From Leucoraja erinacea (Eukaryota): a stretch of DNA of 64,000 bases. Positions 25,719 to 64,000 of the stretch are shown piece after piece. Location of the stretch: contig NC_073407.1 of assembly GCF_028641065.1 (NCBI RefSeq), positions 18,290,001 to 18,354,000 on the forward strand, read 5' to 3'. Each line of letters begins with the position of its first letter. The first letter of the stretch is position 1. A program made the translations under genes and the position numbers. The notes under the pieces are model-generated. The model searched no databases. It was not told the DNA's origin and was given only the letters and a program-made list of their open reading frames with translations.

Positions 25719-26159
25719 TAGATTTCTAGTTTGTTTTAGAAGAAGCAACAAACAGATCCTGATTGACAAAGTGAAATCTGTAGCTAGATTTCAGTGTAGT
25801 AGTGCCGGATATAGTCTGTTCATTGAGAGTAGAACATTTTGCCTTCAAGTAAAGGCTACATCTTTAAAGGATTTAAACTGCCAATTGACAAAACGTTCGT
25901 GCCCACAATGTCAAATCATTGATGAAAACTGTCAGGCCTTAGAGATGTGGTCTGTTTCCATTCACCAACTGTAGAACACGGTGAAGGACAGTGGACACAC
26001 ATTGGGCGGTGGACAAGTACAAAACAAACTAGGTGAAGATGCAGACCAAATGCGTTTGCTCTTGGATAGGTCAGGGGAAAGCAGGAGCCAGACTCCAAGA
26101 ATGAGACTGCAACAGTAATAGCTGCAAGACTATCTCAAGAAGTATTAAAGGTGAAGCAT

Positions 26160-26590
26160 CCAGGACTTCATTAACTTCACCACTAATTTCCATTCTATAC
26201 TCAAATTCACTTGGACCATCTCTGACACCTCGTTCTGTGCACCCCTCTTGAACTATTAACTGTTGCCTGTTATAAACCCCACAACTATCTAGATCACACT
26301 TCTTCCCACCCTACTTCCTGCAAAGACTCTATCCTCCTACTCCCAATTCCTCTGTCTACGCTGCATCTGCGCCCAAGATGAGATTCCATTCCAGGACATC
26401 TGAGATGTCCTCATTCTTTAGGGAACAGGGGTTCCCCACTTCCATCATTGATGAGGCCCTCATACATGTCTCCTCGTTCCCCCTCATCTCTGCTGTTAGT
26501 TCCCGCCTTGTTATAACATGGATAGAGTCCCCCTAGTCCTTGCTTTTCATCCCATCAGCCGTCACACACAACACACAATCTTCCAACATC
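26160..26590 (+). mobile_element. Penelope-like RT C-terminal remnant
   Basis: Degenerate ...LKFTWTISD...SSHPTSCKDSI.YSQFL.LR.IC... ; paralogous to 38940-39605. Confidence 0.7.
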
Positions 26591-27408
26591 TCTGAAACAC
26601 GGTGGTGGGAGTGTTATGGCCTGGGTATGTATGGCTGCTGAAGGTACTGGCTCACTTTTCTTCATTGATGATACAACTGATGATGGTAGTAGTGTAGCGG
26701 CCCATAGTGGTGACCTTGTTAATATCGAACCCTCGCGATTGGCTGGCGCGGTCACATGAGCGTGGGAGCTTCCTTGCGGATTTTTTCTGTAACCGTTCAT
26801 TCAAGCGCCACACGAATAGAATACACATCGTTAAAATTTGGCTGTCTATCTTGACTCAGGTGACTACGTTGTTTGCGTTTCAAAATAAAGAATTTTTGCA
26901 CACCTTAACGTCTCGACTCGCCAAAGTAGAATAATGAATTCTGAAGTCTATCGACATAACCTGTCTGCTCAAGTTCAAACAAATGTCTCAAAACTCATTG
27001 GCCGGCGGTTCATTCTACAGCAACAAACTGAAGGGAACTAGCCCCCAGAACAAGGATAAGCTAAAGATGGCTGCAATACAGGCTTTGCAGAGCATCACCA
27101 GAGAAGATACCCAACAAATGGTGATGTCCATGAATCGCAGACTTCAAACAGCCACTGCATGCAAAGTATATGCAACAAAATACTAAACATTTACACAACA
27201 TTGCTGTGTCCCAAACATTTTGGTGTCCTGACATTTTGGTGAACTGACTATGTATAAGCAATGCTGTAATTTCTACATGGTGAACCCAAAATGTGTAAAA
27301 ATTGCCTTTATTAAAATGTGACAATGTGCACTTGAACCACATGTGATTTTTTTCTATTACAAATCTCAAATTGTGGAGTACAGAGGCAAATAAATAAATT
27401 ATGGGTCT
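26591..27408 (+). mobile_element. Tc1 3' half (copy A) interrupted by a solo LTR
   Basis: KHGGGSVMAWVCMAA and right-TIR sequence; 5' part deleted relative to the paralog at 39881. Confidence 0.85.
26693..26924 (+). mobile_element. Gypsy-type solo LTR with 5-bp TSD AGTAG
   Basis: Begins TGTAGCGG, contains AATAAA, flanked by AGTAG; the same LTR is followed by a PBS at 40820 and preceded by PPT and integrase at 61490. Confidence 0.85.
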
Positions 27409-28431: not shown

Positions 28432-28676
28432 CTACAAGTAAAAATCCACCTTGGTGGCTACGGTTTTGCAGCCTTTGTCTGAATAGATCTTTTCATTTTC
28501 TGGGAAGTATGTCATTTCATCAGCTACAGCAGTAATAATTTCCTCATCCGCCTCATAACCCCTGGCTACCAGTTCTTCCTTGACACACAACTTGACATGT
28601 TTATATTCCAGAGGAAGGAATGGGACAAAGTAGTCAATCACGTTTCTATCAATGAGGCTGGTGTGCCAGAATCCAC
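28432..28676 (-). CDS. tor1: Torsin-1 copy 1, exon 5 ([27 protein letters not shown]...[15 protein letters not shown])
   Basis: 245-nt terminal exon; sensor-II GCK motif; five exons give a 1008-nt ORF (335 aa). Confidence 0.96.
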
Positions 28677-29581
28677 CTATCCAATTAAACAAAAATACAT
28701 TAGTTTACAAAGATCACATCAGGCAAAGCGTCAAAATCATACAGCCATTCATATCTGAACTTGGGTTTTGTACCATTTCCATTTGCATCGTTTTAAAATT
28801 CTTCATTACCCTAAACACATCACAATCTACGTAATCTTGACCAAACCATAAATCCGTCAGGATCTCTGTAGATCACCAGCTGTGGACCTGCATAATCATT
28901 CCACCATTTGTTCAGCTATCAGCATCAGCAATAAGCATCTTCCAGTTCCTTCCCTTAACATCGGCCTTTAAGATGCTTCATTGACCAATCATTTGGTCAC
29001 CTGTGCTATTACCGTTTCAAACTTTTATTGGATAACAATTTTTATAGAAGTGAAGCCTTCCCAATATTTTACAAGCTTCAAGCTCCTGCTGCACTGAATT
29101 AGCCTTCAACCAAACATTGTGGAAACTTAGCAATAAATGTCTGTGCTCCTGACACTACAAGAAGAAAAGGCAATCCGCCAGTGCAGTAACCTTTGATGGG
29201 AAAACAAATAAAACTGTAGATGCTGAAATCTGAAACAAAAGCAGAGATGCTAGAAGAACTCAAGCGTTATCTGTGGAAAGATAAACCAGTCAACATTTCC
29301 AGTCAGTGATCCTTCCTCAGAACAGAACTTTCAGCACTTTGATTACCCTCAAGTAGTCAATGCTGGAAAGCACATAAATGCAAACTGCAAGCATGTCAGA
29401 ATAGAATTAGATGCATGCAGCTCCCAACATGAGCCTGTCAAACCTGTATAAGGAATGCCATAGATGTGCACTGGTAACTAGAATACTCATGGAAGTGGAA
29501 AAAGATATGAACAGATAAACAAAGGCACATTGTTGAAAAACGTCTAACATAGCCTTCATGAAATTGACAATGGATGTTTAA

Positions 29582-29858
29582 TTTAGTTTAGAGATACAGC
29601 ATGGAAACAGTCCTTTCGGTCCAGCAAGTCCATGCCAACCAACACACACCCATACACTCGTTCTATCCCACACACTAGGGACAATTTACAGAAACCAATT
29701 AACCTACAAACCCGCACCTCTTTGGAATGGGGGAGGAAACCAACACCGGTCACAGGGAGGATGTACAAACTCCATACACACAGCACCCGTAGTCAGGATC
29801 AAACCCAGGTCTCTGGCACTGGACGGCAGCAATTTTACCGCTGCGCCACTGTGCCGCC
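29582..29858 (-). mobile_element. tRNA-derived V-SINE (HE1-like); paralogs at ~49379-49652 and ~63855-64000
   Basis: Minus strand GGCGGCACAGTGGCGCAGCGGT (A box) ... GGGTTTGATCC (B box), V-core-like GGTTTCCTCCC..TCCAAAGA, (CTAAA)n tail. Confidence 0.8.
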
Positions 29859-30039
29859 ACAATGGTTGTACAGATTTCCAATTGGGGAGCATATTTTGTT
29901 CCAGTGTTCTTCATTGCACATTCCTCATTTTAAGCAAAAAAGTATATATTAATCAAATTGTACAAAGAAGCTTCCAATAATTCCAAGTTGAACCAGTGCA
30001 GCTCATTTCAAAATGCCAAAATTTAGCATACATACTTAC

Positions 30040-30167
30040 TGTTTTTGTTATTGAAGACTCCGATAGACAGTTTACTGTCAAGATCTTTCAATTGAATTTC
30101 CTCCCTTTTGCTTCCTTTGTGCCAAAAGTCCAGTGCAATCTCAGTGATCCTCTCTCCACCTGCATTG
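30040..30167 (-). CDS. tor1: Torsin-1 copy 1, exon 4 (SNAGGERITEIALDFW...VFNNKNS)
   Basis: 128-nt AG/GT exon; sensor-1 SN. Confidence 0.96.
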
Positions 30168-31717
30168 CTGTTCACAGCAAATAATAGTGATTTATAACAA
30201 ATAACCAAACACTAGCTGGCATAGGCTTAAGGTGAGAGGGGAGAGATTTATGGGGCAAAATTTTCACTCGGAATATAGTCTGTATGTGGAATAAGCTGCC
30301 AGAGGAAGCTGTAAAAGTGTAAACAATTATGGACATCTATATGGATAGGAAGGTTTCTGCGGGCTACAGGCCAAATGCAGGCCAACAAGACCAGGCCTGT
30401 ATACCAACTTTGGTCAACATAGACATGGTGGACCAAAAGGCCAGTTTCATGCTGTACAGCTCTATGACAAGTCACAAAGGGTATCCTCTGGAGCTTGCAG
30501 GCTTTAATACACCTCAACTCAACAAAACATAACTACCCCATCCTTCGCAAGAATTTCTACATCATGAGGCTCCAGAAAATTTATCATGAAATCTCTGATG
30601 GCATCTCACTGTAGTACTGATGAAGTGATGGAACAGTTAGAGATGTCTTCTTTAAAATAAAATGTTAAATATGCCCTCCAAGCTGATTGTCGAATATTCT
30701 ATTGTGTTATTTTGCAGAAGACCAGGGAAGCTCCCTCCCGTGTCTTGACCAATACAAATCCCACAATCAATTTCAGGCACAGAAATTATCTGACTAATTA
30801 TCAAATGTGTTTGTGGGAGCTGTTGTGCTCAGATCAGCTGGCCTGCTTCCTATGGGCAGCACAGTGGCATAGATATGAGTGCTCCTGCTTCAGCGCCAGT
30901 GGCCCAAGTTCAAATTTGATTGGGTGCTGACTGTGTGGAGCTTACATTCTTTCCTGTGACAACAAGTTTCTTACTGGGGTCTCAAATTTTCTCTCACATC
31001 CCCAAAAAGTGCTGTGTGGTTGGTTAATTAGCCTTGCGTGGGGTTGGGTGGTAGAACCTGGAGGGAATTAATGAGAGTGGAGATGAATAGGGAAAATTAG
31101 TGGGGGGGGGGGGGGGGTGGTACTGTTCTGACTGGTCATAGGTTTGATAGGTTGAAATAAACTCCTTCCATTAGGAAATATGGAAATGACCACTTCGGAG
31201 GTATTTCATGGACTTTATAGTATTCTGGTCAGTATTATATAACAAGATATTACATGAATGCAAGTTAATTCTTATTCTTTAAGAATGCTTGTTTGGTGTT
31301 AAGGGGTTATGGGAAGAAGGCAGGAGAATGGGATTGAGAGGCAAAGATAGATCAGCCATGATTGAATGGCAGAGTAGACTTGATGGGCTGAATGGCCTAA
31401 TTCTGCTCCTCAAATTAATAAACAAACAAATAATTTGAACATCATGTAAAATGGCATGCTTCAGTTGTTGCTCAGCTCTTAGACCACTGCTTGCTTTGTT
31501 GTCTGTTGTTCTACAATGACTGATCATGCATTACATTTATTCCCTCCATCATAATTTCAATACCATTTACAATATATTACAAAGCCTTCAGTAAATGTGC
31601 AATTATTGTCAATAAAATAATGTACCCAATTCATTTCTATTTCAAATTCAGTATTTTTATTCCTTAAAGTTAATGATAGACTTTGTTCATGTGATTCACT
31701 ATAAATATATATTTTAC

Positions 31718-31893
31718 CTCAGAAAAATGAAAATCGCCTTCCGGTACACCACTCCATCAATGTTATCATAGTACTCCAAATAAGGCTTAATGGCATCAAT
31801 AAGGCCTGCTTGCATCTTGTCCATTTCATCAAAAATGAACATGGACCTGTCACACGTGGACACATTACCACGGATCCATTTCTGCAGCTGCTC
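31718..31893 (-). CDS. tor1: Torsin-1 copy 1, exon 3 ([27 protein letters not shown]...KAIFIFLS)
   Basis: 176-nt AG/GT exon; Walker B FIFDEMDK. Confidence 0.96.
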
Positions 31894-33758
31894 CTAAGGA
31901 TAGACATTTATTTTGTATGAAATATATTCACAGAAGCAACAACTCTTCACCCCACCACCACAAATCCCCAAACACACCTATTCTCAACACAAACACAGCA
32001 TCACTGAGATGATTATATATTATCCCCAAGTCAGGGTTGATGATATTACAGGACTTTGCCTCGTTATGGCAAGAACAAAAATCACTATAAATAAATGGTT
32101 GGCTGCTGAAGACGAGTAAATTTGACACTTGATATGCACGTATTGTTATGTAGCTGTCTGGTGAAGCAAGACATTTAAGTACAGAAGAGGCTTAGTTTGG
32201 TCGATTCTGCCTTTCACCACATAATAGAAAAACAAATATTATCTCCACTTGAATCACCAACTCTCACATATAGAATGTCTCAAATACATGTTTATACTTA
32301 TTACTACCAAACATTTGGATATTGCTGCTTCTTATAAGGATCTCTGTTGTCGTTGATGCCATTTCCATGAAGAGACTAAAGAACAATTTATTCCATAAAT
32401 CCTTTAGCTGTGGGGCAACCATTTTTAAGGATGTAAATACAGTATCAAGGCGTATCCAGTAAATTAATATGCACTCAAGTCAATAAACTTCACATGAATT
32501 ACATATTTAAGCAGAAGTACTCTGCAATGTAACCAGAATCATTATTTGGAGGGCAAATGGTCTGATTTGATGTGATACCCATTCCCAATTTTCTTTCCTA
32601 CATCTGCCGAGGTCCATCTCCAAAGCACCGTGCCAGTTCCAATAGCTCTCAGAATGTACCTACATTACATGTGTAGCAGGTTATTCTCCGATACCAGTCA
32701 GGCATCAGAAATGAGTCTGATCATCAAACATGGCCAATTTATCAGTATATGAAGCTTATCTGTCCTGCCCAACTTGAAGGCACCAATCTGCATTATTGCT
32801 TCTCCCAATGTAAGGGTGGGTGGCCTCAATGTGTTATGATTTTTTTTTAAATGAAAGAACTTTTATTTTCATCAATGCTACATTTATTGCTTGTAGTAAA
32901 ATTGGCTCATTTTCTAGCACTGTGATATTCCCTCGTGAATGATTTTCAATAATTGCCTTACATCTAGCATAAGGAAAGTCTTGTTAAGTGTTGGCACTAT
33001 AACGTTTTATGATTAAGTCCCATCAATTGACCAAAACAAAATTGATAACATATTTGTCAATTCCTCAATGAGTATGCTACCAAGTTATCTGCATTGAGTA
33101 TTTAGTGCTCAGCGTTCAGTTGGGTGGGATATCCTAGGCAGCCTCGTTTGTTTTATCTTCTGTAATCTTATGACCACCCAGCTAATCACTCCAAGTCACT
33201 TTTGGGGGCATTTTTTTCCCAATGTACGATTACAATTGCTTTGTTTGAGAACAATCCTCTCAAATGTCGTCGGACTTTTATACTACGTTAAAAAGGCACA
33301 TTATAATGAAGCTGTTGTGATGACATGCAGGAGAAGATTAGAAGCAAATAATCAGTATTGTTTTAATTTATATAATGAAACATTAAATACAAAGAACTGA
33401 TTTCCATGCACCACTTTAATCGCAAGGTTTGGAGGTTGTTTAACTATTTATATTTTTTCTTATGCATTCACCAAAAGTGATTACAATTAGATTAAAACCA
33501 TAACTCACTTGGTGATCCATTATTTTATAAAGAAACTTTTTAAACTGCATGATTAAAACACAGCATTCACCATGCACCAAATTTCTATCATTTCATTCAT
33601 AATCCTTCTGAAAACTTAATTAAAATGCATAACTCACTGCTGATATCCAATACTCTCTATGCTACCCCTCATGTTTTGATTTTTTAACTACGAGGAGCAT
33701 TGCCCCACACAAAATATCCCATCTAGCAATTTAAAATGTACCCATACTCTGATGTTAC

Positions 33759-34024
33759 CTTATAGTGGCTGAGATATTCAGGGTGAGGGAAGTGCAAAGT
33801 GGAGATAAACTGATGAACATATGCACTCTGCAGTCCATTTGTGTAAATGTTCTCAGCTAGTATTTTACTAATTAGGTTTTTGCCGGTCCCGGTCCAGCCA
33901 TGTAGAGACAAAGCTAGAGGTTTTTTAGGGTTTGGATTTGTGAAGAAACCATTAACAGCCTTCAAAACAACTTGCTTGGCAATATGTTGTCCAAATAGTT
34001 TGTTATCCAAGTCCATCTTCAAAC
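33759..34024 (-). CDS. tor1: Torsin-1 copy 1, exon 2 (LFGQHIA...HGWTGTGKN...HFPH)
   Basis: 266-nt AG/GT exon; torsin-type Walker A GWTGTGKN. Confidence 0.97.
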
Positions 34025-36221
34025 CTGGTTATGGAAATAAAAGGTTCAGATTATCACACAAAGAACAAAATTACTTAGAATGCAGAGTTTAACTGTTACA
34101 CACACGTTTCACATTTTTAGTGCATAGCTGAAGGGATGTTAAACATTTGGAGATATTGCCTCTTCATCAGTACATAAAGCGGAGGCACTTTGCTTTCTAA
34201 TGTGGACATCACAGATCCCAAAGCATAAGGAAAGGGGGAATTATCCCTTGTGTCCTGGCCAATGCCTACCCTTAAGCAATGATCGAGTTATGATGCTCTT
34301 TGGTGCACACTTACTCTACACCAATTGGCTGGCATATGAAGCAGGTTTATAATAGAGGCTATACTTCATTGGTTGATGAACCACTTTGAGATAGCCCAAG
34401 GATAATTTTCCAGCGATTCAATGCTTAAAAATGAAAGCACCATTTTAATGTGAAGTGCATTGTACTGAGTACAGTACATTAAAAAAGCAATCAATACCCC
34501 GCCCCATAAGAGTGAAAATGTCTAATTTCTGACCTCGGACTGTTTCTGTACTCAGTTACACATCTGCCAATCCTTAACAACGTCTTAAATTTGCTTCTTT
34601 TCCTACCCTGCAAATGTTTTTGACATTCCTAACGACATAAAGACCGCCTACTTCCATCTTTGTTTCATCATCTGTCCTACTTCATCTAATATCCTTAGAA
34701 AAACCTCATTCATTTACTTGTGTCACTCCAGATTCCAGTCCAGGCAAGTCCTGGCAAGTCTTCTATCCCCATATCTGGAATCTTCAATGCAGGCAGATTC
34801 CTGCTGCTGGGGTTTGACAGGAATCAGTGTTCACCCTTCATGATTTATATTACAAATTAGATTAAGAGACTGTATGAAGCTAAAACAAAATATGCGGGTA
34901 AAGAATAGAACAACATGTTGATTGGTTTAGATGGTTTAGAAGTTTATTGATAATACTGATAGAGGTGGATGTTTCAATGTAAAAAGGAGTTCAAAATCAT
35001 GATAGATATGGACAAATGACATGACTTGGAAGCAGGGGGCAAAGGGAATTCATTCCCTTTGATAGGAGATATAAAAACAAGCATTTTAAACATTGAGATT
35101 GGTAAATTGTGATGTACAGTGTAATCTTGACACACTGGTTCATTTAAATGTGTAAACAAATGTAAATAAGTGAGTACCAGCAATTGGGAAAGTAAATGAT
35201 TTGAACATCTTAATTGCAGAGTTTTTAGTATTAGTTTTAGAGATACAGCATATTTTGGTCCACCAAGTCCATGTTGACCATCAATCACCTGAACACTAAT
35301 TTTATGTTACCCCACTTTTGCATCCTACACTATAGGGGCAATTTACGGAAGCCAATTAACCTACAAACCGGCACGTCTTTCGAATGTGGGAAGAAACCCA
35401 AGCACCCGGAGAAAACCAATGCAGTCGCAGGGTGAACACGCAAACTCCATACAGACAACAACCAGATGGTGTGGAAGTACAATCTCATTTTAGAATGACT
35501 GATAACTAGAACCACCGTCTCAGACAAATAAATGAGGATCACAGCCAGAACGTAGCAATTGGACAGGCGCATGGATTTGCAGGGAATGGAGGGATATGGG
35601 TTACATGCAGGTAGAGATTAATTTTAGCCCAGCATCAATGTTCAGCACCGATATTGTGGGCTGCAGGGCCTGTTCTTGTGCTGTATTGTTCAGATTCAGA
35701 TTCAGATTCAATTTTAATTGTCATTGTCAGTGTACAGTACAGAGACAACGAAATGCATTTACAACGAAATTGTAAATTTCGTGTGTTCTATGTTCTGTGA
35801 GTGTTGGAGGTCAGGAGAGACTAATAAACGTATATCAATTTATGAGAGGCTTCCTGTGGTGTACTGTTTTATCTATTTATTACATTATTATAGAAACAAT
35901 ACTATTTCAATGACCACATTTCACTCTCCATCCATCAAAAGAGACAAATAAAGTTAAGATTAAAAAAACAATTGCTTCTCCCTATTATTTAGGGCCAAGT
36001 TATTACTGGTTTATTGCTGGATTTGTATCCAAATCTGAATTTGCATTGTAATTCCCATCAGCAAATATGTGTTGTGCATTGTACATTGTCACAACTACCC
36101 TGGGGAGAGCAGACGTGTTGCAAGGTGGCCTGTGCAATCTGCATGCAAAAGTCCTGTGGATGCAGTACAAATAAATAGCCGGTGTATGTTAACGTGGCGG
36201 TGAGATGTCACGACCATTTAC

Positions 36222-36414
36222 CTGTCAGGTTGAGTTTCACCCACTCGTCCTCACAACACTCCTGGAACTTGCAGTACAGTTTGGGGAAGGTGGTGAAGAG
36301 GCCGGTCAGAGCGGTGGCCACGCCGACTGCGATGCCCATACTGATGGGCTCCATGGCCGCCACAAAAGGGGTGGACAAGAGCACGAGCAGCACAGCCCGG
36401 ACCATCACCTTCAT
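36222..36414 (-). CDS. tor1: Torsin-1 copy 1, exon 1 (signal peptide, hydrophobic domain, YCKFQECC)
   Basis: ATG at 36414, donor G|GTAAAT; MKVMVRAVLLVLLSTPFVAA-MEPISMGIAVGVATALTGLF. Confidence 0.93.
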
Positions 36415-36782
36415 GTTGTCGGTTTCCTGGCGGCCGCCCCCTAACAGGCGACGAGGCACAAGACCCCGCCTCAACGCAGCGGCCAGCGAGCCCTGACAAC
36501 CCAGCGGAAGAGCATGCGTCGTCACATCCGCCCCCTCTGACCTTTCCCCTTCCCCGCCCGAAACCCTCAGCCAGACATGTTTGTGAGGGGCATCCACACA
36601 GGCAGGAACAATGATCTTATAGCGGAGCAAGATGGTCTGCTCCTACGTAAAACACGTAGTACGGTCATGCGCAGATTCATGGGCGATTATAGGACCCATT
36701 TTAGCAACCAGCCTCCGGCAAAGATCAGATCTTTGTTTCCGCCTCCGCTCTCGTATCTTCACTTTGGTCTTTGACTTTGACC

Positions 36783-37042
36783 ATGCCGTCCATATCTACC
36801 AGTGTTGCCTAGTGTTGCCTACTGCTCTGCGGTGAATTGTTCCAATCGCCAATGTAGGCGACCCGACTTGTCTTTCTTCAGTGTTTAAGAAGGAACTGCA
36901 GATGCTGGAAAATCGAAGGTACACAAAAAAGCTGGAGAAACTCAGCGGGTGCAGCAGCATCTATGGAGCGAAGGAAATAGGCAACGTTTCGGGCTGAAAC
37001 CCTTCTTCAGACTCTCTTCAGGTTCCTCGTTAAGGAGGAAAG
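36783..37042 (+). pseudogene. Disrupted THAP-domain first exon of the P-like transposase
   Basis: Removing a 10-bp tandem duplication (36811-36820) and a repeat insertion (36882-37014, TSD TCTTCAG) gives MPSISTSVAYCSAVNCSNRQCRRPDLSFFRFLVKEER followed by GTAAG; fits the THAP CxAxxCxN...SFFRF pattern. Confidence 0.75.
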
Positions 37043-38873: not shown

Positions 38874-38939
38874 TATAGAGCAGAGCCTGCAATAGTAAGA
38901 GATTTGCAAGACTATCTCAAGAAGTATTAAAGGTGAAGT

Positions 38940-41300: not shown

Positions 41301-41304
41301 CTGG

Positions 41305-51642: not shown

Positions 51643-53385
51643 CTAAGGATAGACATTTATTTTGTATGAAATATATTCACAGAAGCAACAACTCTTCACT
51701 CCACCACCACAAATCCCCAAACACACCTATTCTCAACACAAACACTGTTTCATACGGCATCACTGAGATGATTATATATTATCCCCAAGTCAGGGTTGAT
51801 TGATATTACAGGACTTTGCCTCATTGTGTCAAGAACAAAAGTCACTATAAATAATTGGTTGGCTGCTGAAGACGAGTAAACTTGACACTTGATATGCACG
51901 TATTGTTATGTAGCTGTCTGGTGAAGCAAGACATTTAAGTACAGAAGAGGGTTAGTTTTGTCGATTCTGCCTGTTTCACCCCATAAGAGAATTTTTTTAA
52001 ATCTCTACTTGAATCACCCACTCCCACATATAGAATGTCTCAAATACATGTTTAATCTTATTACTACCAAACTTTTGGATATTGCTGCTTCTTATAAGGA
52101 CCTCTGTTGTCGTTGATGCCATTTCCATGAAGAGACTAAGCAATTTATTCCACAAATCCTTTAGCTGTGGGGCAACCATTTTTCAGGATGTAAATACAGT
52201 ATCAAGGCGAATCCAGTAAATTAATATGCACTCACGTCAATAAACTTCACATGAATTACAAATTTAAGCAGAAGTACTCTGCGATGTAACCAGAATCATT
52301 ATTTGGATGGCAAATGGTCTGATTTAATGTGCCACCCATTCACAATTTTCTTTCCTACATCTGCCAAGGTCCATCTCCAAAGCATCGTACCAGTTCCAAT
52401 AGCTCTCAGAATGTACCTACATTACATGTGTAACAGGTTATTCTCCCTGATACTAGTCAGGCATCAGAAATGAGTCTGATCATCAAACATAGCCAATTTA
52501 TCAGTATATGAAGCTTATCTATCCTGCCTAACTCAAAGGCACCAATCTGGATTATTGCTTCTCCCAATGTAAGGGTGGGTGGCCTCAATGTGTTATGAAA
52601 TTTAAAAAATGAAATAACTTTTATTTTCATCAATGCTACAATTATTGCTTGTAATAAAATTGACCAAAACAAAATTGATGACATATTTGTCAATTCCTCA
52701 ATGAGTATGCTACCAAGTTATCTGCACTGAGTATTTAGAGCTCAACGTTCAGTTGGGTGGGATATCCTAGGCAGCCTCGTTTGTTTTATCTTCTGTAATC
52801 TTATGACCACCCAGCTAATCACACCAAGTCACTTTTGGGGGCATTTTTTCCCAATGTATGATTACAATTGCTTTGTTTGAGAACACTCCTCTCAAATGCC
52901 TTTGGACTTTTATATTACGTTAAAAAGGCACATTACAATGAAGCTATTGCGATGACATGCAGGAGAAAATTTGAAGCAAATAATCAGTATTGTTTTAATT
53001 TATGTAATGAAACATTAAATACAAAGAACTGATTTTCATGCGTCACTTTAAGCTCAATGTTTGGAGGTTGTTTAACTACTTATATTTTTATGCATTCACC
53101 AAAAGTCTACAATTAGATTAAAACCATAATTCACTTGGAGATCCATTATTTTATAAATAAACTTTTTAAACTGCATGATTAAAACACAGCATTCACCATG
53201 CACCAAATTTCCATAATTTCATTTATAATCCTTCTGAACACCTTAATTAAAATGCATAACTCACTGCTAATATCCAATACTCTCTATGCTACCCTTCACG
53301 TTTTGATTCTTTAACTGCGAGGAGCATTGCCCCACACAAAATATCCCATCAAGCAATTTAAAATGTATCCATACTCTGATGTTAC

Positions 53386-53651
53386 CTTATAGTCGCTGAG
53401 ATATTTAGTGTGAAGGAAGTGCACAGTGGAGATAAAGAGATGAACATTTGCACTCTGCATTCCATTTGTGTAAATGTTCTCAGCTATTATTTTACTAATT
53501 AGGCTTTTGCCGGTCCCGGTCCAGCCATGTAGAGACAAAACTAGAGGTTTTTTAGGGTTTGGATTTGTGAAGAAACCATTTACAGCCTTCAAAACAACTT
53601 GCTTGGCAATATGTTGTCCAAATAGTTTGTTATCCAAGTCCATCTTCAAAC
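53386..53651 (-). CDS. tor1: Torsin-1 copy 2, exon 2 (Walker A GWTGTGKS)
   Basis: 266-nt AG/GT exon, open. Confidence 0.9.
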
Positions 53652-54229
53652 CTGGTTATGGAAATAAAAGGTTCAGATTATCACACAAAGAACAAAATTC
53701 TTTAAAATGCAGAGTTTTACAACTGATACACATTTTCCACATTTTTATTGCAGAGCTGAAGGGATGTTAAACATTTGGAGATATTCCCTCTCCATCAGTA
53801 CATAAAGCAGAGGCACTTTGCTTTCTAATGTGGACATCACAGATCCCAAAGCATGAGGAAAGGGGGAATTATCCCTTGTGTCCTGGCCAATGTCTACCCT
53901 TAAGCAATGACCATGATGCTCTTTGGTGCATATTTACTTTACATAAATTGGCTGGCATATGAAGCAGGTTTATAATAGAAGCCATACTTTATTGGTTAAT
54001 GAACCACTTTGAGATAGCTCAAGGATATGAGAACAACTATACAATTTATTATTTTACTTCCTGTATATCTCTGTCTTGTATAAAACATGCCTCAGTTGTT
54101 ACAACTGCAGGAGCTGATACTGATCAATTTTCCAGCGATTCATTGCTTAAAAATGAAAGCATCCTATTAATGTGAAGTGCTTCGGTCCGAGTACAGTCCA
54201 ATAAAAACACAATCAATACCCCACCCCAT

Positions 54230-54915
54230 AAGTCAAGTCAAGTCAAGTCAAGAGTTTATTGGCATGCATCCCAGATAGGACAATGAAATTCGGCCTGTTC
54301 ACAGTCGCGGGACTTACTTACCATCACCCGGCGGAGTCCCAACATCAGAAGCCTGGATCGCCTCAGCACAGAGGGAGAACAAGGAGAGAAGAGACAAGGA
54401 CTTAAGACTTTTGCCTTCCATCACAATGAGGAGGTGCATGGTAGACTCACTGTGGTGGATGTTAAATCTGTGTTTATTGTGTGTTTTGTTACTTTATTCT
54501 ATGTTATGACTGCAAGGCAAACAAAATTTTGTTCAGACTGAAAAGTCTGAATGACAATAAAGGAATACAATACAAAATTCTTGCATTGCTGCAGTACAAC
54601 AGGATATCGTAGTCATAAATACAGATCAGATCAGTGTGTCCATATACCATAGAATACATATATACACACACATCAGTAAACAGATAAAGTGCAATAAGTT
54701 GTTATAGTTCATAGTTTGTTTGAAGTTGTGTTTAATAGTCTGATGGCTGGGTGGGAAATAAGCTGTTCCTGAATCTGGATGTTGCAATTTCAGGCTCCTG
54801 TACCTTCTTCCCAATGGCAGTGGAGAGATGAGTGTGTGGCCAGGATGGTGTGGGCCCTTGATGATGTTGGCAGCCTTTTTGAGGCAGTGACTGTGATAGA
54901 TCCCCTCGATGGTGG
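54230..54915 (-). mobile_element. Rex1/Babar-like LINE 3' fragment with (GACTT)n tail, specific to copy 2 intron 1
   Basis: Minus strand ...LPLGRRYRSLK...YFP; AAGTC microsatellite at 54230-54252; absent at the matching copy 1 site near 34510. Confidence 0.65.
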
Positions 54916-56144
54916 GGAGTGAAAATGTCTAAATTCTGACCTCGGACGGTTTCTGTGCTCAGTTACACATCTGCCATTCCTTAACAATGTCTTAAATGTG
55001 CTTCTTTTCTTACCCTGTAAATGTTTTTGACATTCTTAACGACACAAAGACTGCCTACTTCCATCTTTGTTTCATCATCTGTCCTACTTCATCTAATATC
55101 CTTAGGAAAACCTCATTCATTTACTTGTGTCACTCCAGATTCCAGTCCAGGCAAGTCTTCTATCCCCATATCTGGAATCTTCAATGCAGGCAGATTCCTG
55201 CGACTCGGCTGTGACAGGAATCAGTGTTGGCCCATCATAATTTATATTACAAATTAGATTAAGAGACTGTATGAAGCTAAAACAAAATATGTGAGTAAAG
55301 AATAGAACAACATGTTGATTGGTGTAGAGGTTTATCGATAATACTGATAGAGGTGGATGTTTCATGTAAAGATGAGTTCAAAATCATGATAGATATGGCC
55401 AAATTACACGACTTGGAAGCGGGGCGATGAAGATGGGAATTCATTATATCAGATATAAAAACAAACATTTTAAACATTGAGATTGGTAAATAGTGATGTA
55501 CAGTGTAATCTTGACCCGTTGGTTCATGTAAATATGTAAATAAGTGAGTACCAGCAATTGGGAAAGCAAATGATTTGAACGTCAAAGGGCTGAATGGTCT
55601 CCTCCTGCACCTAATCTATCTTAATTGCAGAGTTTTTAGTATTAGCTTTAGAGACACAGCATATTTTGGTCCACCAAGTCCATGTTGACCATCAATCAAT
55701 CACCTGTACACTAGTTCTATGTTACCCCACTTTTGCATCCTACACTACAGGGGCAATTTCCAGAAGCCAATTAACATACAAACCGGCACGTTTTTCGAAT
55801 GTGGGAGGAAACCGAAGCACCCGGAGAAAACTCATGCAGTCGCAGGGAGAACACGAAAACTCCATACAGCCAACAACCACAGGGCGTGGAAGTACAATCT
55901 CAGTTTAGAAATACTGATAACTGGAACCACCATCTCAGGCAAATAAATGCAGATCACAGCCAGAATCTCGCAATTAGACAGGCGCATGGATTTGCAGGAA
56001 TGGAGGGTTATGTGCAGGCAGAGGAGAGTAATTTAACCCAGCATCAATGTTCAGCACCGATATTGTGGGCTTTAGGGCCTGTTCTTGTGCTGTATTGTTC
56101 TATGTTCTGTGAGCATTGGAGGTCAGGAGACCTAATAAAAGTAT

Positions 56145-57160
56145 GGGGAGGTTCCACGGCAGTCGGGTCACGATCCATGACCCGTACTGTTGCTACGCTA
56201 CTCCAAATGGATTACCCGCGATGTACTACAGGTAGGCACTTACCATTGTTTCCAACGTAGCGGGCCCGTTAAAACCCGCAGAAAATGTCAATTTTTGTGC
56301 TGCAAATAATTATTGAAATCAGGGATAAGTGTGTGAGACATTTAGCCCACTTCAGAATTCGAAAAGTGAGGAGAAATGACGTTAGATAGAAGTGAGAGCT
56401 GAAGGGACAACAACAGAGAGCTTGGCGAACATTGGCCGTTTCCTCACTGCATTTGATCAACTAAGGCATTATTTGTGTTTTTTCTTGATTCCATTTGCAT
56501 CTAAAAAGTTTCAGAAGTGATAAATCTGGCTGTGATTTTTTTTAATCGCCCATGGTTCCCAAGTGGGTTTTTACATACAAAATGAAAACGCATCTGAAGA
56601 AAATTTTACAACCAGATTTATCACTTCTGAGAATTTTTAGATACCAAAGGGATCAAGAAAAAGCACAAATAATGTCAAGAAGGGATTCGGCCCAAAATGT
56701 CGCCCATTTCCTTCGCTCCATAGATGCTGCTGCACCCGCTGAGTTTCTCCAGCATTTTTGTGTACCTTCAATCTTCCAGCATCTGCAGTTCCTTCTTGAA
56801 CACAAATAATGCCTTACTGTTGATGAAATGCAGTGAGCAAACGCGATAATTCCCAATATTTTCAATTCCGATATCTGCACGGCCAATGTTTACCAAGCAC
56901 TTTAGGCGTAGCTGCTGTTGTCCCTTCATTTCACTTCACTTTTGGAATTCTAAAGTTGGGTACATGTCTCTCACACTTACCCCGATCCACTATTTTTTTC
57001 AGCGCAAAAATTCAACATTTTGGCGGTTTTTAACAGGTAGGAAAGTATGCGTTTCTAGCATTAATAACATATACCAGAAGTGACGGATGTCCTCCAGATG
57101 GATTGAGTGGCTCCGTGCGTCAAGCCCTATGACCCAGTGCCCTATGACGTGCAACCCTCC
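56145..57160. mobile_element. Foldback MITE with long internal inverted repeats and a nested pLTR-type repeat
   Basis: Imperfect TIR GGGGAGGTTCCACG / CGTGCAACCCTCC; internal arms ~56465-56540 and ~56600-56675 are reverse complements; absent from copy 1 near 35835. Confidence 0.8.
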
Positions 57161-57523
57161 TATATGAGAGGCTTCCTGTGGTGTACTGTTTTATTTATTT
57201 ATTACATTATTATAGAAACAACACTATATCAATGACCACTTTTCACTCTCCACTCATCAAAAGAGACAAATAAAGTTAAGATTAAAGAAATCAATTTCTT
57301 CTCCCTATTATTCAGGGCCAAGTAATTACTGGCTTATTACTGGATTTGTATCCAAATCTGAATTTGCATTGTAATTCCCCACAGCATTGTTCATTGTCAC
57401 AACCTATCTTTGGTCACAACAGAGAAAGCAGACGTGTTGCAAGGTGGCCTGTGGCATGCGGATGCAGCACAAATAAATAGCCGGTGTATGTTAACGTGGC
57501 AGTGAGATGTCACGACCATTTAC

Positions 57524-57689
57524 CTGTCAGGTTGAGTTTCACGCACTCGTCATCACAACACTCCTGGAACTTGCAGAACAGTTTGGGGAAGAGGCCGGTA
57601 AAAAAAGTGCCCATACTGATGGACTCCACGACCGCCAGAAAAGGGGTGGACAAGAGCACGAGCAGCACAGCCCGGACCATCACCTTCAT
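57524..57689 (-). CDS. tor1: Torsin-1 copy 2, exon 1 (signal peptide, shortened hydrophobic domain)
   Basis: ATG at 57689, donor intact; 166 nt versus 193 nt in copy 1 (27 nt lost in frame). Confidence 0.88.
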
Positions 57690-58892
57690 GTTGTCGGTTT
57701 CCTGGCGGCCGCCCCCTAACAGGCGACGAGGCACAAGACCCCGCCTCAACGCAGCGGCCAGCGAGCCCTGACAACCCAGCGGAAGAGCAGGCAGCGTCAC
57801 ATCCGCCCCTCTGACCTTCCTCCCCCCCAACCCTCAGACAGACATGTTTGTGAGGGGCATCCACACAGGCAGGAATATGGTGCTGACAACAGTCAACTTG
57901 TCCCTCACACTCACTATCACTCTTTGTCTCATTTTCTGGAGAGTTGGAACTGTTCAGTAAATCCAGCAGCATTTGTGACGAGAAGGGAAAAAAATGAATA
58001 AGTTTTGGAACGAATACAATTAAGATTATAGAACCCCATCTAATCCAATCAACATATTATTCTATTCCCTACTCACCTATTTATTTTTTGTTTCTTTTTA
58101 CGTGAATCTACTAATAATATGACAATTTTCTGGATGAGTAAACTGTTATCTTCGATCTTTTCCCCATAGTTTTAGACACATCCATATTTGTCCTCCTTGC
58201 AGAATTTATTTCTGGGGGGAGTCTCCAAATATCCAAATATACAAGGGCGGAAGATTCTTCTAAGTTTTGATTTGTGCTCAGAACCGTAAAGCCTTGACAG
58301 AGCTTGATGATTCAGGCACACGTCAAACGCAGGACAATTTTTTTGGACTTGAAATAAGATCTCTGAAGAAAAAAAATTCAGAGGATGCACAAAGTCCTCA
58401 AAAGCATTTCAATACTCATGTTTTTGGCAAAATCTGTAATTATAAATATAAAACCTGTTATATATTATAAAACACTGGGCAGCGGGTTCAATGATTTTCA
58501 AAAATGAATTGATTTAAGTATTTGATGCAAAAGATGACTGAGGTCTGTGAAGGAAAAGTGTGTGGAAGAAACTGAAAAGAGAGATATTACAAGAGACATC
58601 ATGAACACGATGGAATAAAAACAAGGCGCAACTCGGTAACATGATGGAATACTCCCTACTGGCCTTAAATCAGTGCAGCTCTTAATACCATCCATTACTA
58701 AATACTAATTTCCTCACTACCTGTATGTCCTATCTATACAATGCACAGCACTTGATTTGGCTGCTCCACTAACATTTTGGTGCAGAAGAGGTTTACCACA
58801 ATTTTGCTTGCATTATAGAGGGTATTAGCTATAAGGTTGGACAAACTTGGATTATTTTCTCTGTAATGTAAGAGTTTGAAGGGGAACCTGAC

Positions 58893-59387: not shown

Positions 59388-59629
59388 GACCTAACCGAAG
59401 TATATGAAATTATGAGAGGCATAGATAAGGTGGACAGAACCTTTTTCTCAGGGTGGAAATGTCAAAGACTAGACGAAAGAGCTTTAAGGTGGGAAGATGG
59501 AACTGCTCCTCTGCACCTCAAAGACATGTGGGTAACTGCAGCATTACTTTCCTAATTTTGTATTCAATTACCCTTGTGACAAGGATCAACATATCTGTCT
59601 GTTCTCTACCTGTTCATGTGTCTGTCTAA

Positions 59630-61695
59630 ATGGCTCTTAGACGACAAACCACCTGCACTGGTTTGTCAATGTCCAAGTGTGCCGGCTTAAGATGGTCCAC
59701 AAAGACAGTCTCATGCCTGCCGCCCATGTTGATGACAAAAGTCGTGGTGCCGTGTTGCAGAACCTGGAAAGGTCCCTCATAAGGCCATTGCAGTGGTGTA
59801 TGGTGAGAATCGCTGCGAAGGAAGACGTACCGGCAGTCCTGGAGGGCAGGTGGGACGTACGTGGTGGTGAGTCCATGGCGGGACGTTGAGACTGGAGAGA
59901 GCGCACCCACCATCTCCCAGAGGTGTGTCAGCCTGGTCGTGGGCGGTTCCTGATGTCGACGTGCCGCTGGGATGGTGGGCGCGCTCTCCCCAGTCCCAAC
60001 GTGACGACTACGGCTCGCAGCACACGGAATGGGCTTTCGTAGTCCCGTTGTAATGGCTAGCGGTGAGCATCCCTGCAGATGAAGATATAGGCATACTGTT
60101 GTAACACCGTGGGCACATGCACTGCAGACGAACCATGCCTGGCAGTGGGAACTGGGGCCAACGTGCTCACCCTTTGTCGAAGGCTGGCCAGCAGCGCTGG
60201 AGCTGATGCGACTTGACCGCGGGCGGCAGGCAGAAAATCCCCAGGCACCCGCAGGGCCGAGCCGTACACGAGCTCGGCCGAGGAAGTAGCCAAATCCTCC
60301 TTCGATGCGGTGCATGTACCAAGGAGGACCCAGGGCAGTTGGTCCACCCAGTCTGTGCCCGTAAGTCGAGCTTTCAGCGCCGACGGAACCTTTCGACCAG
60401 CCCATTAGCCTGCGGATGGTAGGCAATCATATGGTGCAACTGGGCACCGTAGAGCTGGGCTAGGGCAGACCACAAGGAAGAGGTGAACTGGGCCCCCCGG
60501 TCGGTGGAAATGTCAGAGGGCACCCCGAACCTGGCGATCCGGTGGTGGATTGGTTCACGAGGTGGCCTGAGGCTATTCCGCTGTCGGACACCTCCGCCAC
60601 GTCTTGTCCCCGGGCACTCGCGGCCAATTGGATAGCTAGGTTTGAGGTTCTGGCAGACATTTCCACCGACTGGGGGGCTCAGTTCACGTTCTCGTTGTGG
60701 GCTTCGCTGGCGAAGATATACGGGGCGCAGTTGCACCACATCTTCGCCTATCACCCTCAGGCAAATGGGCTCGTGGAGCGGTTCCACCGCCACTTGAAAG
60801 CGGTACTGAAGGCACGGCTCACAGGTCCGGACTGCGTCAACCAGTTGCCTCGGGTGCTCTTAGGCATCCGCACGGCCCCCAAAGCGAACTTGGATGCATC
60901 GTCCGCCGAGTTGGTCTGCGGCTCAGTTTTGCGGGTGACCAGGGATTTCCTCCCTGCATGGTTCGAGGGCAGCTGGAAGACATCCAGGCGGTGTTGGCGA
61001 GTCTCCGGCAGCTAGTGGGCGGCCTGGCTCCTGTGCCTACCTCGCGGCATGGGACAGCCCTGGTCCACGTGCCGCCAGAACATAAAAACTGCTTATTTGT
61101 TTTTGTCCGCAGGGATTTGCATCGGTCCGCACTGCATCGTGTCTACGATGGTTCGTTCTGGGTGTTGCGTCGCGACTTTCCAGTTGGACGCTGGGGGCCG
61201 GGAGATCGCCCCCGTCGCTCGGCTTAAACCGGCTCACCTGGATGTCTACAGCCCGGTAGTGGTGGCGTAGCCTCGACCTAGGGGCCGTCTGCTGGCCGAT
61301 CCAGTGGCACCTGCTGTGCTTGTTCTCCCCGCACCTCTTGCTTCTGTTCCTCCCACACCGTCAAGGTCTCCTGGCTTTGTTCCGCCAGCCTCACCTGTAC
61401 CGCCCGTCCCGTCTGTTGTTACCACGCGGGCCAGTCGTCGGGTCCACCCTCCTGCTCAGTTCCGTACCTCGGGTTCTGGGGGTGGGTCCTGTAGCGGCCC
61501 CTTGTGGTGGACTTGTTAATATCGAACCCTCGCGATTGGCTGGTACGGTCACATGAGCGCGGGAGCTTCTTCGATTTTTTCTGTAACCGTTCATTCTAGC
61601 GTCACACGAATAGATTACACATCGTTAAAATTTGGCTGTCTATCTCGACTCGGGTGACTACTTTGTTTGCACACCTTAACATCTCGACTAGCCAA
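59630..61695. mobile_element. Rearranged Gypsy integrase fragments (minus ~59630-60540, plus ~60542-61270), PPT and 3' LTR (61490-61695)
   Basis: rve motifs VDWFTRWPEAIPL, STD(R/W)GAQF, YHPQANGLVER and GPY/F module YEGPF; G-rich PPT before the LTR; AGTAG after the LTR. Confidence 0.88.
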
Positions 61696-62313
61696 AGTAG
61701 AATAATTAATTCTGAAGTGTATCGACACAACCTGTCTGCTCAAGGTCAAACAAATGTCTCAAAACTCATTGGCCGGCGGTTCATTTTACGGCAAGACAAT
61801 GATCCCAAACATACTGCTAAAGCAACAAAGGAGTTTTTCACAGCTAAAAAATTCTTGAGTGGCCAAGTCAATCACCCGATCTGAACCCAATTGAGCATGA
61901 CTTTTATATGCTGAAGAGAAAGCTGAAGGGGAATAGCCCCCAGAACAAGAATAAGCTAAAGATGGCTGCAATACAGGCCTGGCAGAGCATCACCAGAGAA
62001 GATACCCAGCAACTGGTGATGTCCATGAATCGCAGACTTCAAACAGCCATTGCATAAAAAAAAGTAAATGCAACAAAATACACAACATGACTACTTTCAT
62101 TTACATGACATTGCTGTGTCCCAAACATTATGGTGCCATGAAATGGGGAGACTATGTATAAGCACTGCTGTAATTTCTACATGGTGAAACCAAAATGTGT
62201 AAAAATGGCCTTTATTAAAATGTGACAATGTGCACTTGAATCACATGTGATTTTTTCTATTACAAATCTCAAATTGTGGAGTACAGAGGCAAATAAATAA
62301 ATGATGGGTCTTT
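61696..62313 (+). mobile_element. Tc1 3' half (copy D)
   Basis: RQDNDPKHTAK, PSQSPDLNPIE; right TIR truncated at the same point as copy A. Confidence 0.88.
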
Positions 62314-64000
62314 ATAAACTAATGTATTCTTGTTTTACAGCGCACTGTAAATATATAATGTTCCACCACCCCAGCACCAGTCATTTTAGATTAAATTACT
62401 TTAGAAATGCAATTCACAAAACAAATCCAATTGAAAAGAATCTGATAAAATAACATGTATTTTCACATGGTGACATTTAAAAAAATAAAATAAAACCTTT
62501 ATACAGTGGAAAAAATAAAGCTAAAAATATCAGACTTTTCATGTTTTACCAAGTAACATGTGTTTATTTTAATCATGAGCCTGTCACATAAGGGACACTA
62601 TAACAAAGATTATTCTAGTATCTGTATGAAATATTTTGTATAGTAAAAGTAATTGCTAAAACAGACACTATTTGCCTTCTTAGGAAACGTATCCATCTTA
62701 ACTGGCTTTAGTTAAAAACAAATATATCCACTTTACATGATTTGACCTGTAAAAATGTTGACACAAAAATATCAGTACAAAACAAGAAAATTGTTGAACA
62801 AAAAGTCCATGTTGGATATGCTTTTTCACATTTGCTACAAAGGAGAAATTGAGTACCTTGTGCATGAATGGATTGTTGTGTGCATTGCAACATAAATTAG
62901 TTTCTTCTCGTTGTCATTTCTTTAAGTGGGACGGTGGGATTAAACTTGAACATAATATAGTGCTGATTTCTTTGCATGGTTCCTTCGTCAAGAGCATTTA
63001 CTCAATTTTAAATGGCCAAAAAAATTTATTTTCAAAGAAGTGCAGTGGCTCAATCTATGCAACCTGTCAAGCTATGCAATCATTTTCAACTAATTACTTC
63101 CCTACTGTATGTATGTAAACATGTGTGAAATTCTCAATCTTTAAATAGCAGCTTAAAATCACTACAGGAACAAACTGGCAAATTGAGATAGATTCAAATA
63201 GCGCAATCCCCAGGTAAATCCATCAACTGCAGCAATCAATTATCCCATTCTTTTTTTTATTATTAAAAAAGTGTCCAGTGTCAAAAAGCAAAATATATTC
63301 AATTTAAAAAACACACACATTCTACAAGTAAAAATCCACCTTGGTGGCTACGGTTTTGCAGCCTTTGACTGAATAGATCTTTTCATTTTCTGGAAAGTGT
63401 AATTTAATCAGCTCTGCTATAGGATCTTTGCCTGAGACTACAAGAAGAAAAGGCAATCCGCCAGTGTTGTAACCTTTGATGGAAAACAAATAAAACTGTA
63501 GATGCTGAAATCTGAAACAAAAGCAGAGATGCTAGAAGAACTCAAGCATTATCTGTGGAAAGATAAACCAGTCAACATTTCCAGTCAGTGATCCTTCCTC
63601 AGAAGAACTTTCAGCACTTTGATTACCCTCAAGTAGTCAATACTGGAAAGCACATAAATGCAAACTGCAAGCATGTCAGAATAGAATTGGATGCATGCAG
63701 CTCCCAAACCTGTCAAACCTGTCAAACCTGTATAAGGAATGCCATAGATGTGCACTGGTAACTAGAATACTCATGGAAAAATATATGAACAGATAAACAA
63801 AGGCACAAAGTCCAAAAACGTCTAGAATAGCCTTCATGAAATTGACAAGGATGTTTAGTTTAGTTTAGAAATACAGCATGGAAACAGTCCTTTTGGCCCA
63901 GCCAGTCCACGCCGACCAACGCTCACCCATACACCAGTTCTATCCCACACACTAGGAACAATTTACAGAAACCAATTAACCTACAAGCCTGCACCTCTTT
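62314..64000 (-). pseudogene. tor1: Torsin-1 copy 3: 3' UTR, truncated exon 5 (63322-63413) and intron 4, running off the window
   Basis: Colinear with 27410-28525, then with 29148 onward; acceptor and 5' part of exon 5 are deleted. Confidence 0.88.

What the first reader, a model, noticed from the sequence alone, without database searches (positions are those of the whole stretch)
26107..64000. P-element-type transposon ends mark the birth and death breakpoints of a torsin-1 tandem array
Seen: three torsin-1 units. The junction between units 1 and 2 (38392-38887) and the deletion disrupting unit 3 (63414-63430) both carry short terminal pieces of one TIR family (CAAAGATC..ATAGC). A full element with 8-bp TSD and THAP remnant sits beside the first junction. 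Established: Drosophila P transposase cuts with a 17-nt stagger and produces adjacent deletions and duplications; in vertebrates P elements are known mainly as domesticated THAP9 and zebrafish Pdre copies. Inference: a P-like family was recently active in this lineage and drove amplification and pseudogenisation of a host ER AAA+ ATPase gene.
Basis: partly seen in the sequence, partly recalled or inferred. Interest (0 to 1): 0.88.

Follow-up and report, generated by a model that had tools for sequence, protein, structure and literature searches.

The report
Skate P-element scars in torsin array
In the little skate, a decayed jumping gene related to the fruit-fly P element left short excision scars at two joints of a repeated torsin gene cluster, and one scar removed part of a gene copy, but it is not shown that the element created the cluster.

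Summary
The window is the torsin-1 locus of the little skate: units 1 and 2 equal RefSeq proteins letter for letter.

Confirmed:
- A 1783-bp element with 24/25 terminal repeats, an 8-bp target duplication and a THAP first exon. Relatives link it to P transposases with RNase H and GTP-binding domains.
- Three orphan ends of 16, 17-20 and at most 20 nt; one lies outside the array. A generic deletion would rarely leave ends this short.
- The 622-bp unit-3 deletion is best read as excision repaired with a one-sided flanking deletion.

Not supported:
- 'Birth': 2 of 10 array junctions carry a P end, and the unit 1/2 junction could be a later deletion.
- 'Recent': units differ 4-8% and derived copies are shared with Amblyraja.
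- 'Death': RefSeq models an exon 1-4 copy spliced into unit 2 as a double-torsin fusion.
- An exact 17-nt cut: two junctions extend to 20 nt.

New lead: a skate copy is 68% identical to a priapulid protein over 238 residues, suggesting horizontal transfer.

The parts
28432..36414 (-). Torsin unit 1, intact, conserved copy. Exons 36414-36222, 34024-33759, 31893-31718, 30167-30040, 28676-28432; 335 aa.
   Evidence: Identical to XP_055516136.1; Pfam Torsin and TOR1A_C; 4 differences in 190 residues from the Amblyraja main copy
46051..57689 (-). Torsin unit 2, open frame, constraint relaxed. Exons 57689-57524, 53651-53386, 51642-51467, 49944-49817, 46295-46051; 326 aa.
   Evidence: Identical to XP_055516134.1; dN/dS against unit 1 is 1.37 (43.5 non-synonymous, 8.5 synonymous), not different from 1 (p=0.6)
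61920..64000 (-). Torsin unit 3 as far as the window reaches: 3' flank, exon-5 remnant 63322-63413, intron-4 piece 63431-64000
   Evidence: Self-alignment; TOR1A_C positions 35-58 of 58
63411..63430 (-). Orphan P end, 17 nt certain and 20 nt with three bases shared with the host, at a 622-bp deletion that removes the exon-5 acceptor and about 50 codons
   Evidence: empty intron-4 site intact in units 1 and 2
36609..38391 (+). Full non-autonomous P-family element, 187 bp upstream of the unit-1 start codon
   Evidence: Terminal repeats 24 of 25, extending to 42 nt at 81%; subterminal inverted pair 36694-36709 / 38280-38295; no catalytic-domain remnant by tblastn with three full cores
36601..36608 (+). 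Left copy of the 8-bp target duplication
38392..38399 (+). Right copy of the 8-bp target duplication, shared with the junction remnant
36793..37042 (+). THAP first exon of the transposase, broken by a 10-bp frameshifting duplication and a SINE at 36882-37011
   Evidence: 19 of 23 residues identical to Priapulus P0140 and Leucoraja P0143; the match to Amblyraja P0142 continues past the SINE
38400..38886 (+). Degenerate orphan P end (38400-38410 and 38878-38886) split by an unrelated inverted-repeat element; joins the unit-1 promoter side to sequence homologous to 26107 onward
38411..38873 (.). Element B, non-coding inverted-repeat element flanked by TATA; another copy sits in unit-2 intron 1 (about 56145-57160)
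57868..57875 (+). Empty single copy of the P target site upstream of unit 2
12102..12117 (+). Orphan P end of 16 nt outside the array; no second copy of its 8-bp flank within 5 kb downstream
   Evidence: expected by chance 0.0002 times in 64 kb
41301..42794 (+). Copy of 16247-17747 inside the array; no P end at either edge
   Evidence: 92% identity, 4.5% non-CpG divergence
45888..45974 (-). 87-bp inverted copy of unit-2 intron 4 at a 1.3-kb deletion in the unit-2 3' flank; no P end
   Evidence: 87 of 87 identical to 49168-49254
59629..61690 (.). Unit 2/3 junction: unit-2 upstream sequence joined at about 59640 to Gypsy integrase pieces and an LTR; no P end
   Evidence: Pfam rve

Best explanation
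A P-superfamily transposon family was mobile in the skate germ line around or after the time the torsin-1 gene was amplified. Shown: copies inserted next to the unit-1 promoter, in unit-3 intron 4, and at 12102. Inferred: transposase cut them out with a long stagger that left about 17 nt of the terminal repeat on the donor end. End joining, perhaps after a few bases of repair synthesis, attached that end to a site beyond the other flank. In unit 3 this removed 622 bp, including the exon-5 acceptor. At 38400 the same kind of end was joined to the start of another unit, and a second copy inserted at the same 8-bp site. The family reshaped the array, but most junctions came from other repair processes, and whether the 38400 junction is the first duplication or a later deletion is undecided.
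For: P membership by a homology chain. The window's THAP exon matches P0140, P0142 and P0143-5. P0140, P0146 and P0147 carry PF12017 above its cut-off. Leucoraja P0144 residues 217-252 are 86% identical to P0150, and 3 of 3 such cores scanned carry the P-type HTH, RNase H N and C and GTP-binding insertion domains. Anatomy: 8-bp duplication, CA...TG ends, subterminal repeats. All 3 of 3 orphan ends are 16-20 nt, and no longer one-ended copy was found. Under a uniform-breakpoint null, two clean ends of 15-20 nt have probability 4e-6 to 1.4e-4 for elements of 3000 to 500 bp. The Tc1 and element-B ends checked gave no such short orphans, on a very small sample. Drosophila excision leaves 17-nt 3' overhangs on the donor and gives flanking deletions (passages of PMC2895639; PMC8951532).
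Against: Both array remnants match the terminal repeat to position 20, beyond a 17-nt overhang. Either three bases match by chance (about 1 in 64), or synthesis preceded joining, or the cut differs from Drosophila. The 15-20 nt window of the null was chosen with the Drosophila value in mind and after seeing the data, and n is 3. The junction remnant needs two indels or three mismatches. No two-ended footprint was found. No autonomous skate copy was seen: the three longer Leucoraja relatives are THAP fragments fused to other proteins. In wild-type flies, lethal flanking deletions were 0 of 44 (Table 1 passage of PMC8951532), so such events are uncommon per excision.
Confidence: 0.68

Rival explanations
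1. Birth junction. A P end generated at the unit-1 promoter joined or invaded a site 10.5 kb away on a homologue lacking the element, creating the first tandem copy. Later rearrangements added the other junctions. This is a special case within the best explanation.
For: The junction is head-to-tail, starts exactly at the P site and enters unique sequence at 26103-26107, before the LINE fragment. Unit 2 has the empty site. The flank behind the junction is among the most diverged copies (7.6% non-CpG; its LTR 6.2% against 4.9-5.6%). The remnant is the most decayed P trace. No erased junction has to be assumed.
Against: The same sequence results from a flanking deletion in an existing array, the mechanism seen in unit 3. 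Unit 2 is separated from the junction by a second Tc1+LTR copy and a copy of 16247-17747, so it is not the direct product. The four LTR copies are star-like, with 1, 1 and 1 informative splits. Rhinoraja has three copies of its own, so the locus expands readily. Hybrid-element insertion is recalled, not read here.
Confidence: 0.4
2. Passive markers. P copies inserted and were later removed by ordinary microhomology-mediated deletions unrelated to transposase; the short ends are coincidence.
For: Both array remnants end in 3-4 bases shared with the host. The array has many unrelated deletions, one with a templated insertion. Any insertion lies at an alignment break by construction.
Against: 3 of 3 orphan ends are 20 nt or shorter, which a uniform null makes very unlikely; no long one-ended pieces were found.
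Confidence: 0.12
3. The element is a THAP-bearing hAT or another 8-bp-duplication superfamily, not P.
For: Two close THAP hits are named after the 52-kDa PKR-inhibitor repressor, recalled as THAP12, which is hAT-derived. The termini also fit the recalled hAT pattern. The window copy lacks a catalytic domain.
Against: Those names rest on the THAP domain alone. The priapulid hit carries PF12017, and the chain leads to cores with the P-specific GTP-binding insertion. No hAT domain appeared in any of these scans. hAT excision is recalled to leave no element sequence at the donor site.
Confidence: 0.05
4. Assembly artefact: the units are misjoined haplotypes.
For: The assembly used noisy long reads and has 1.6% heterozygosity (passages of PMC10115646). 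Reads were not available here.
Against: Units differ by 4-8% non-CpG. Amblyraja models show several derived copies sharing 13 residues with units 2 and 3.
Confidence: 0.03

Closest known systems
Drosophila melanogaster P element (PMC7776569, passages)
   Same: 8-bp target duplication, terminal plus subterminal inverted repeats, N-terminal THAP, internally deleted copy, insertion near a promoter, about 17 nt of terminal repeat left at donor sites
   Different: Terminal repeat 25 bp with a different sequence (31 bp in the fly); remnants run to 20 nt; the match of relative P0140 to the solved fly transposase is weak (E=0.047); no autonomous copy seen
Zebrafish Pdre2 / THAP9 (bioRxiv 10.1101/2024.03.22.586318, parts 1-2 of 5 read)
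   Same: Vertebrate P-like element with 8-bp duplication, internally deleted copies, and larger flanking deletions after excision in cell assays
   Different: Pdre2 has 13-bp terminal repeats of unrelated sequence. The nearest relatives of the skate THAP found here are marine invertebrate proteins (Priapulus, Diadema, Octopus). Zebrafish THAP9 did not appear, and no direct comparison was run.
BuT5/P and Galileo at natural Drosophila inversion breakpoints (PMC3698922, passages)
   Same: P-superfamily elements at fixed natural rearrangement breakpoints
   Different: Those arose by ectopic recombination between whole copies with exchanged target duplications; here single short ends remain. That paper also warns that elements colonise breakpoints secondarily.
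Pack-TIR duplications in animals (PMC8277862, passages)
   Same: DNA transposon involved in host gene duplication and chimeric transcripts
   Different: There the host DNA is captured inside the element; here it is adjacent

Membership tests
P superfamily | 7-8 bp target-site duplication | tested here: met
   8 of 8 identical on both sides; single copy at the empty site in unit 2
P superfamily | Terminal inverted repeats starting CA, with subterminal inverted repeats | tested here: met
   24 of 25 terminal; 16-nt subterminal pair at 94%
P superfamily | N-terminal THAP domain | tested here: met
   No direct Pfam or PDB hit for the broken exon; 19 of 23 identity to proteins with full THAP hits at E about 1e-17
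P superfamily | P-type HTH, split RNase H and GTP-binding insertion in the family's transposase | tested here: met
   Met through relatives only: P0144 to P0150 at 86% over 36 residues; P0150-152 carry PF12017, PF21787, PF21788, PF21789 above cut-off. Absent from the window copy.
P superfamily | 17-nt staggered cleavage | tested here: inconclusive
   Remnants of 16, 17-20 and at most 20 nt: compatible with a long stagger, exact offset not fixed
P superfamily | Autonomous partner with intact catalytic triad in the skate genome | not testable with these tools
   No eukaryotic genome collection was available; protein searches returned only THAP-fragment fusions for skates
hAT (THAP12-type) | hAT catalytic or C-terminal dimerisation domain in relatives | tested here: not met
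   None in Pfam scans of 12 relatives
Kolobok | TTAA target duplication (recalled) | tested here: not met
   The duplication is 8 bp and GC-rich
Torsin-1 (TOR1A/TOR1B-like) | Torsin and TOR1A_C domains, five exons, neighbour C9orf78 | tested here: met
   (Torsin, TOR1A_C; Hep_59 at 19033-19284); the synteny itself is recalled
Pseudogene (unit 3) | No functional product | tested here: inconclusive
   Exon-5 acceptor and about 50 codons lost, but RefSeq fusion models exist and cryptic acceptors beside the remnant are in frame; exons 1-4 lie outside the window

The most novel reading that the evidence does not exclude
A P family that entered skates horizontally from marine invertebrates created the torsin array through a P-end-mediated duplication. 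By deleting the exon-5 acceptor of one copy it then turned that copy into the front half of a read-through, two-domain AAA+ torsin expressed in at least two skate genera. Its scars record long-stagger P cleavage in a vertebrate germ line.
Probability: 0.12. Interest if true: 0.82.

Novelty: new member of a known kind. Interest (0 to 1): 0.55.

Why it matters
Vertebrate P transposition is known mainly from cell assays with THAP9 and from zebrafish Pdre copies. Orphan ends of 16-20 nt are natural germ-line evidence that a cartilaginous-fish P family used the long staggered cut and deleted host exons. They make the cut offset directly measurable from a genome-wide length histogram. The high identity to priapulid and sea-urchin proteins offers a testable case of P-element horizontal transfer into a vertebrate. 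The locus also gives skate torsin copies under relaxed constraint and a possible tandem-domain torsin.

Tried and rejected
- Pfam scans of 20 frames inside the element found no THAP or transposase domain; PDB sequence search with the 23-residue exon found nothing.
- tblastn with three full P cores found no catalytic remnant in the window (best E 0.13).
- No second copy of the 8-bp flank was found within 5 kb of the orphan ends at 12102 or 63430.
- The other three-mismatch motif hits, apart from the true ends, were treated as chance (3.9 expected); none scored in the terminal scan.
- Ordering the duplications failed: distances are star-like, and 7 of 11 inner branches of the protein tree are unsupported (14 rows, exons 2-4 only).
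- The idea that 38887-41300 and unit 3 are one unit split inside a Gypsy provirus was dropped, because the RNase H and integrase pieces are not collinear and the LTR distances do not favour it.
- Distance to breakpoints was rejected as the null, since insertions sit at alignment breaks by construction; remnant length was used.
- Pfam did not confirm the duplicated C9orf78-like exon at 41362-41430 or the USP20-like exon near 9 kb; both names are recalled.
- Literature: searches listed no paper on a skate P family or a skate torsin array, judged from listings and abstract starts. PMC4350176 has no occurrence of four 'P element' terms in its text (passages; its figure of superfamily presence could not be seen). 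Repbase and Dfam were not available, so the family may already be catalogued. No supplements were read.
Full report
Locus. Self-alignment shows large direct repeats between 26 and 64 kb. Pfam finds Torsin and TOR1A_C exons on the minus strand and Hep_59 (C9orf78) at 19 kb (63 frames scanned). The best hits for exon 2 are skate proteins. The spliced units 1 and 2 are identical to Leucoraja erinacea XP_055516136.1 and XP_055516134.1. Unit 1 is the conserved copy, with 4 differences in 190 residues from the Amblyraja main copy. Unit 2 is open but unconstrained: dN/dS 1.37, not different from 1 (p=0.6). Unit 3 is cut by the window end.

The element. 36609-38391 has terminal repeats matching at 24 of 25, an inverted match extending to 42 nt at 81%, a subterminal pair of 16 nt, and an 8-bp direct repeat on both sides. 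Unit 2 has the empty single site. Inside are a THAP first exon with a 10-bp frameshifting duplication, two SINE copies and a 230-bp internal duplication. No catalytic remnant was found.

Classification. The exon alone gave no Pfam or PDB hit and only an Atlas lead at 0.78. A search of 1.84 billion representatives gave 5 hits; of 3 looked up, two clusters hold Amblyraja LOC116980953 and one a Priapulus protein. The exon matches these at up to 19 of 23 residues. The Priapulus protein and two Diadema proteins carry THAP plus the P-transposase HTH above cut-off. Leucoraja P0144 overlaps P0150 at 86% over 36 residues, and P0150-152 carry HTH, RNase H N, GTP-binding insertion and RNase H C. The family is therefore P-superfamily by a chain of relatives. 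No autonomous skate copy was seen. The hAT rival, suggested by the record names and the 8-bp duplication, found no domain support.

Orphan ends. A scan of both strands found four strong termini: two of the full element, 20 nt at 63430 and 16 nt at 12102. A 16-mer is expected 0.0002 times by chance. At 63430 the end stays attached to its intron-4 flank and is joined to exon 5, removing 622 bp; 17 nt are certain and three more are shared with the host. Two substitutions and a 2-nt loss lie within 14 nt of that break, relative to unit 2. At 38400 a third end follows the target repeat directly: seven exact bases, TATA, the unrelated element B, TATA, then nine bases ending at repeat position 20, of which the last three or four overlap the host match. 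Seven-base matches are common (20 in the window), so this piece rests on its position. Both array remnants have A at position 16, while the full element and the 12102 end have G. The full element is therefore probably a separate insertion and not the cause of the junction (inference).

Mechanism. In Drosophila, excision leaves 17-nt 3' overhangs on the donor; most wild-type repair is short synthesis followed by end joining, and flanking deletions occur, mainly in repair mutants (passages of PMC2895639; PMC8951532; PMC7776569). All 3 of 3 orphan ends here are 16-20 nt. A deletion falling at random in a 500-3000 bp element would leave two clean ends of 15-20 nt with probability 1.4e-4 to 4e-6 (window chosen with the fly value in mind, so indicative only). 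Tc1 and element-B ends gave no short orphans, on few ends. Excision with one-sided deletion is well supported for unit 3. An exact 17-nt cut is not shown, because both array ends match to 20.

Birth. The 38400 junction is head-to-tail and enters unique sequence at 26103-26107, as a P-triggered duplication would. A later flanking deletion gives the same letters. Of 10 array junctions tested, 2 have a P end within 30 bp. Others include a copy of 16247-17747, an 87-bp templated inversion, and a join to Gypsy sequence at the unit 2/3 boundary. Four 3'-flank copies are star-like. I put the birth reading at 0.4.

Age. Paralogous blocks differ mostly by 4-8% outside CpG (one 164-column block reaches 12.7%), against 1.6% heterozygosity in the published assembly (passage of PMC10115646). 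Units 2 and 3 share a 9-residue exon-1 shortening and 13 derived residues in exons 2-4 with Amblyraja copies, so the array predates that split. The only date read is Okamejei-Amblyraja at 33.9 million years (passage of PMC12361510), which does not date it directly. Rhinoraja's three copies form their own clade. 'Recently active' is not supported.

Death. RefSeq models in Leucoraja (3 of 4 isoforms) and Amblyraja (5 of the 5 fetched from one cluster) splice exon 4 of one copy to exon 2 of the next, giving proteins with two Torsin domains. I infer that the front half in Leucoraja is unit 3, which lies outside the window. Exons 2-4 total 570 nt, so the frame is kept automatically, and circular-RNA back-splices could produce the same models. 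The front half also changes a tryptophan that is invariant in the other 13 rows. Cryptic acceptors beside the remnant read in frame to the normal stop. Unit 3 cannot make a normal torsin, but silence is not shown.

New lead. Leucoraja P0144 and Priapulus P0140 are 68% identical over 238 residues, including the linker. This suggests horizontal transfer between marine invertebrates and skates. No host-gene control or tree was run, and contamination is not excluded.

Novelty. Searches listed no account of this family or array; repeat databases were not checked. The zebrafish precedent was read in parts 1-2 of 5 of bioRxiv 10.1101/2024.03.22.586318, and natural P-caused inversions in passages of PMC3698922. 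Verdict: a real, new member of a known superfamily with informative scars, less sweeping than the title claimed. Interest 0.55.

Noticed in passing
P0144 (Leucoraja) against P0140 (Priapulus); also P0146-P0148: 68% identity over 238 residues of THAP, linker and HTH start between a skate and a priapulid; candidate horizontal transfer.
   Followed up: partly
P0143, P0144, P0145 (Leucoraja RefSeq models): The family's THAP exons are modelled as fused to host genes: a TRIM B-box/coiled-coil protein, and a C-terminus recalled as MORC-like. Possible exon capture.
   Followed up: no
window 35826-35845, 56145-57160, 38411-38873: Element B is present in unit-2 intron 1. The matching unit-1 site has about 8 extra bases resembling an excision footprint, and a B copy sits 2.5 kb away inside the P remnant: a possible local hop.
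   Followed up: partly
window 63431-63456, minus strand: A pyrimidine tract and two cryptic acceptors just before the P remnant are in frame with the rest of exon 5. The break falls at the position recalled as the DYT1 glutamate pair.
   Followed up: partly
window 41301-42794: The duplicated block includes a short exon recalled as C9orf78-like; Pfam gave no hit.
   Followed up: partly
window 42795-43785: About 1 kb inside the array with no match elsewhere in the window apart from a SINE piece; origin unknown.
   Followed up: no
window 26693-26925, 40603-40818, 44610-44842, 61490-61692: Four copies of a Gypsy LTR nested in a Tc1 element: two solo, one followed and one preceded by internal sequence.
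   Followed up: partly
window about 11700 and 13620-13764: Two promoter-like regions with motifs recalled as ZNF143 sites flank the orphan end at 12102; the left gene looks USP20-like (recalled, no Pfam hit).
   Followed up: no
P0129, P0130 (Rhinoraja): A 6-residue exon-1 deletion close to the one in Leucoraja and Amblyraja derived copies; the first duplication may be older than the tree suggests.
   Followed up: no
window 36719-36735: A 17-bp palindrome built from the first 8-9 bases of the terminal repeat, 110 bp inside the left end; function unknown.
   Followed up: no
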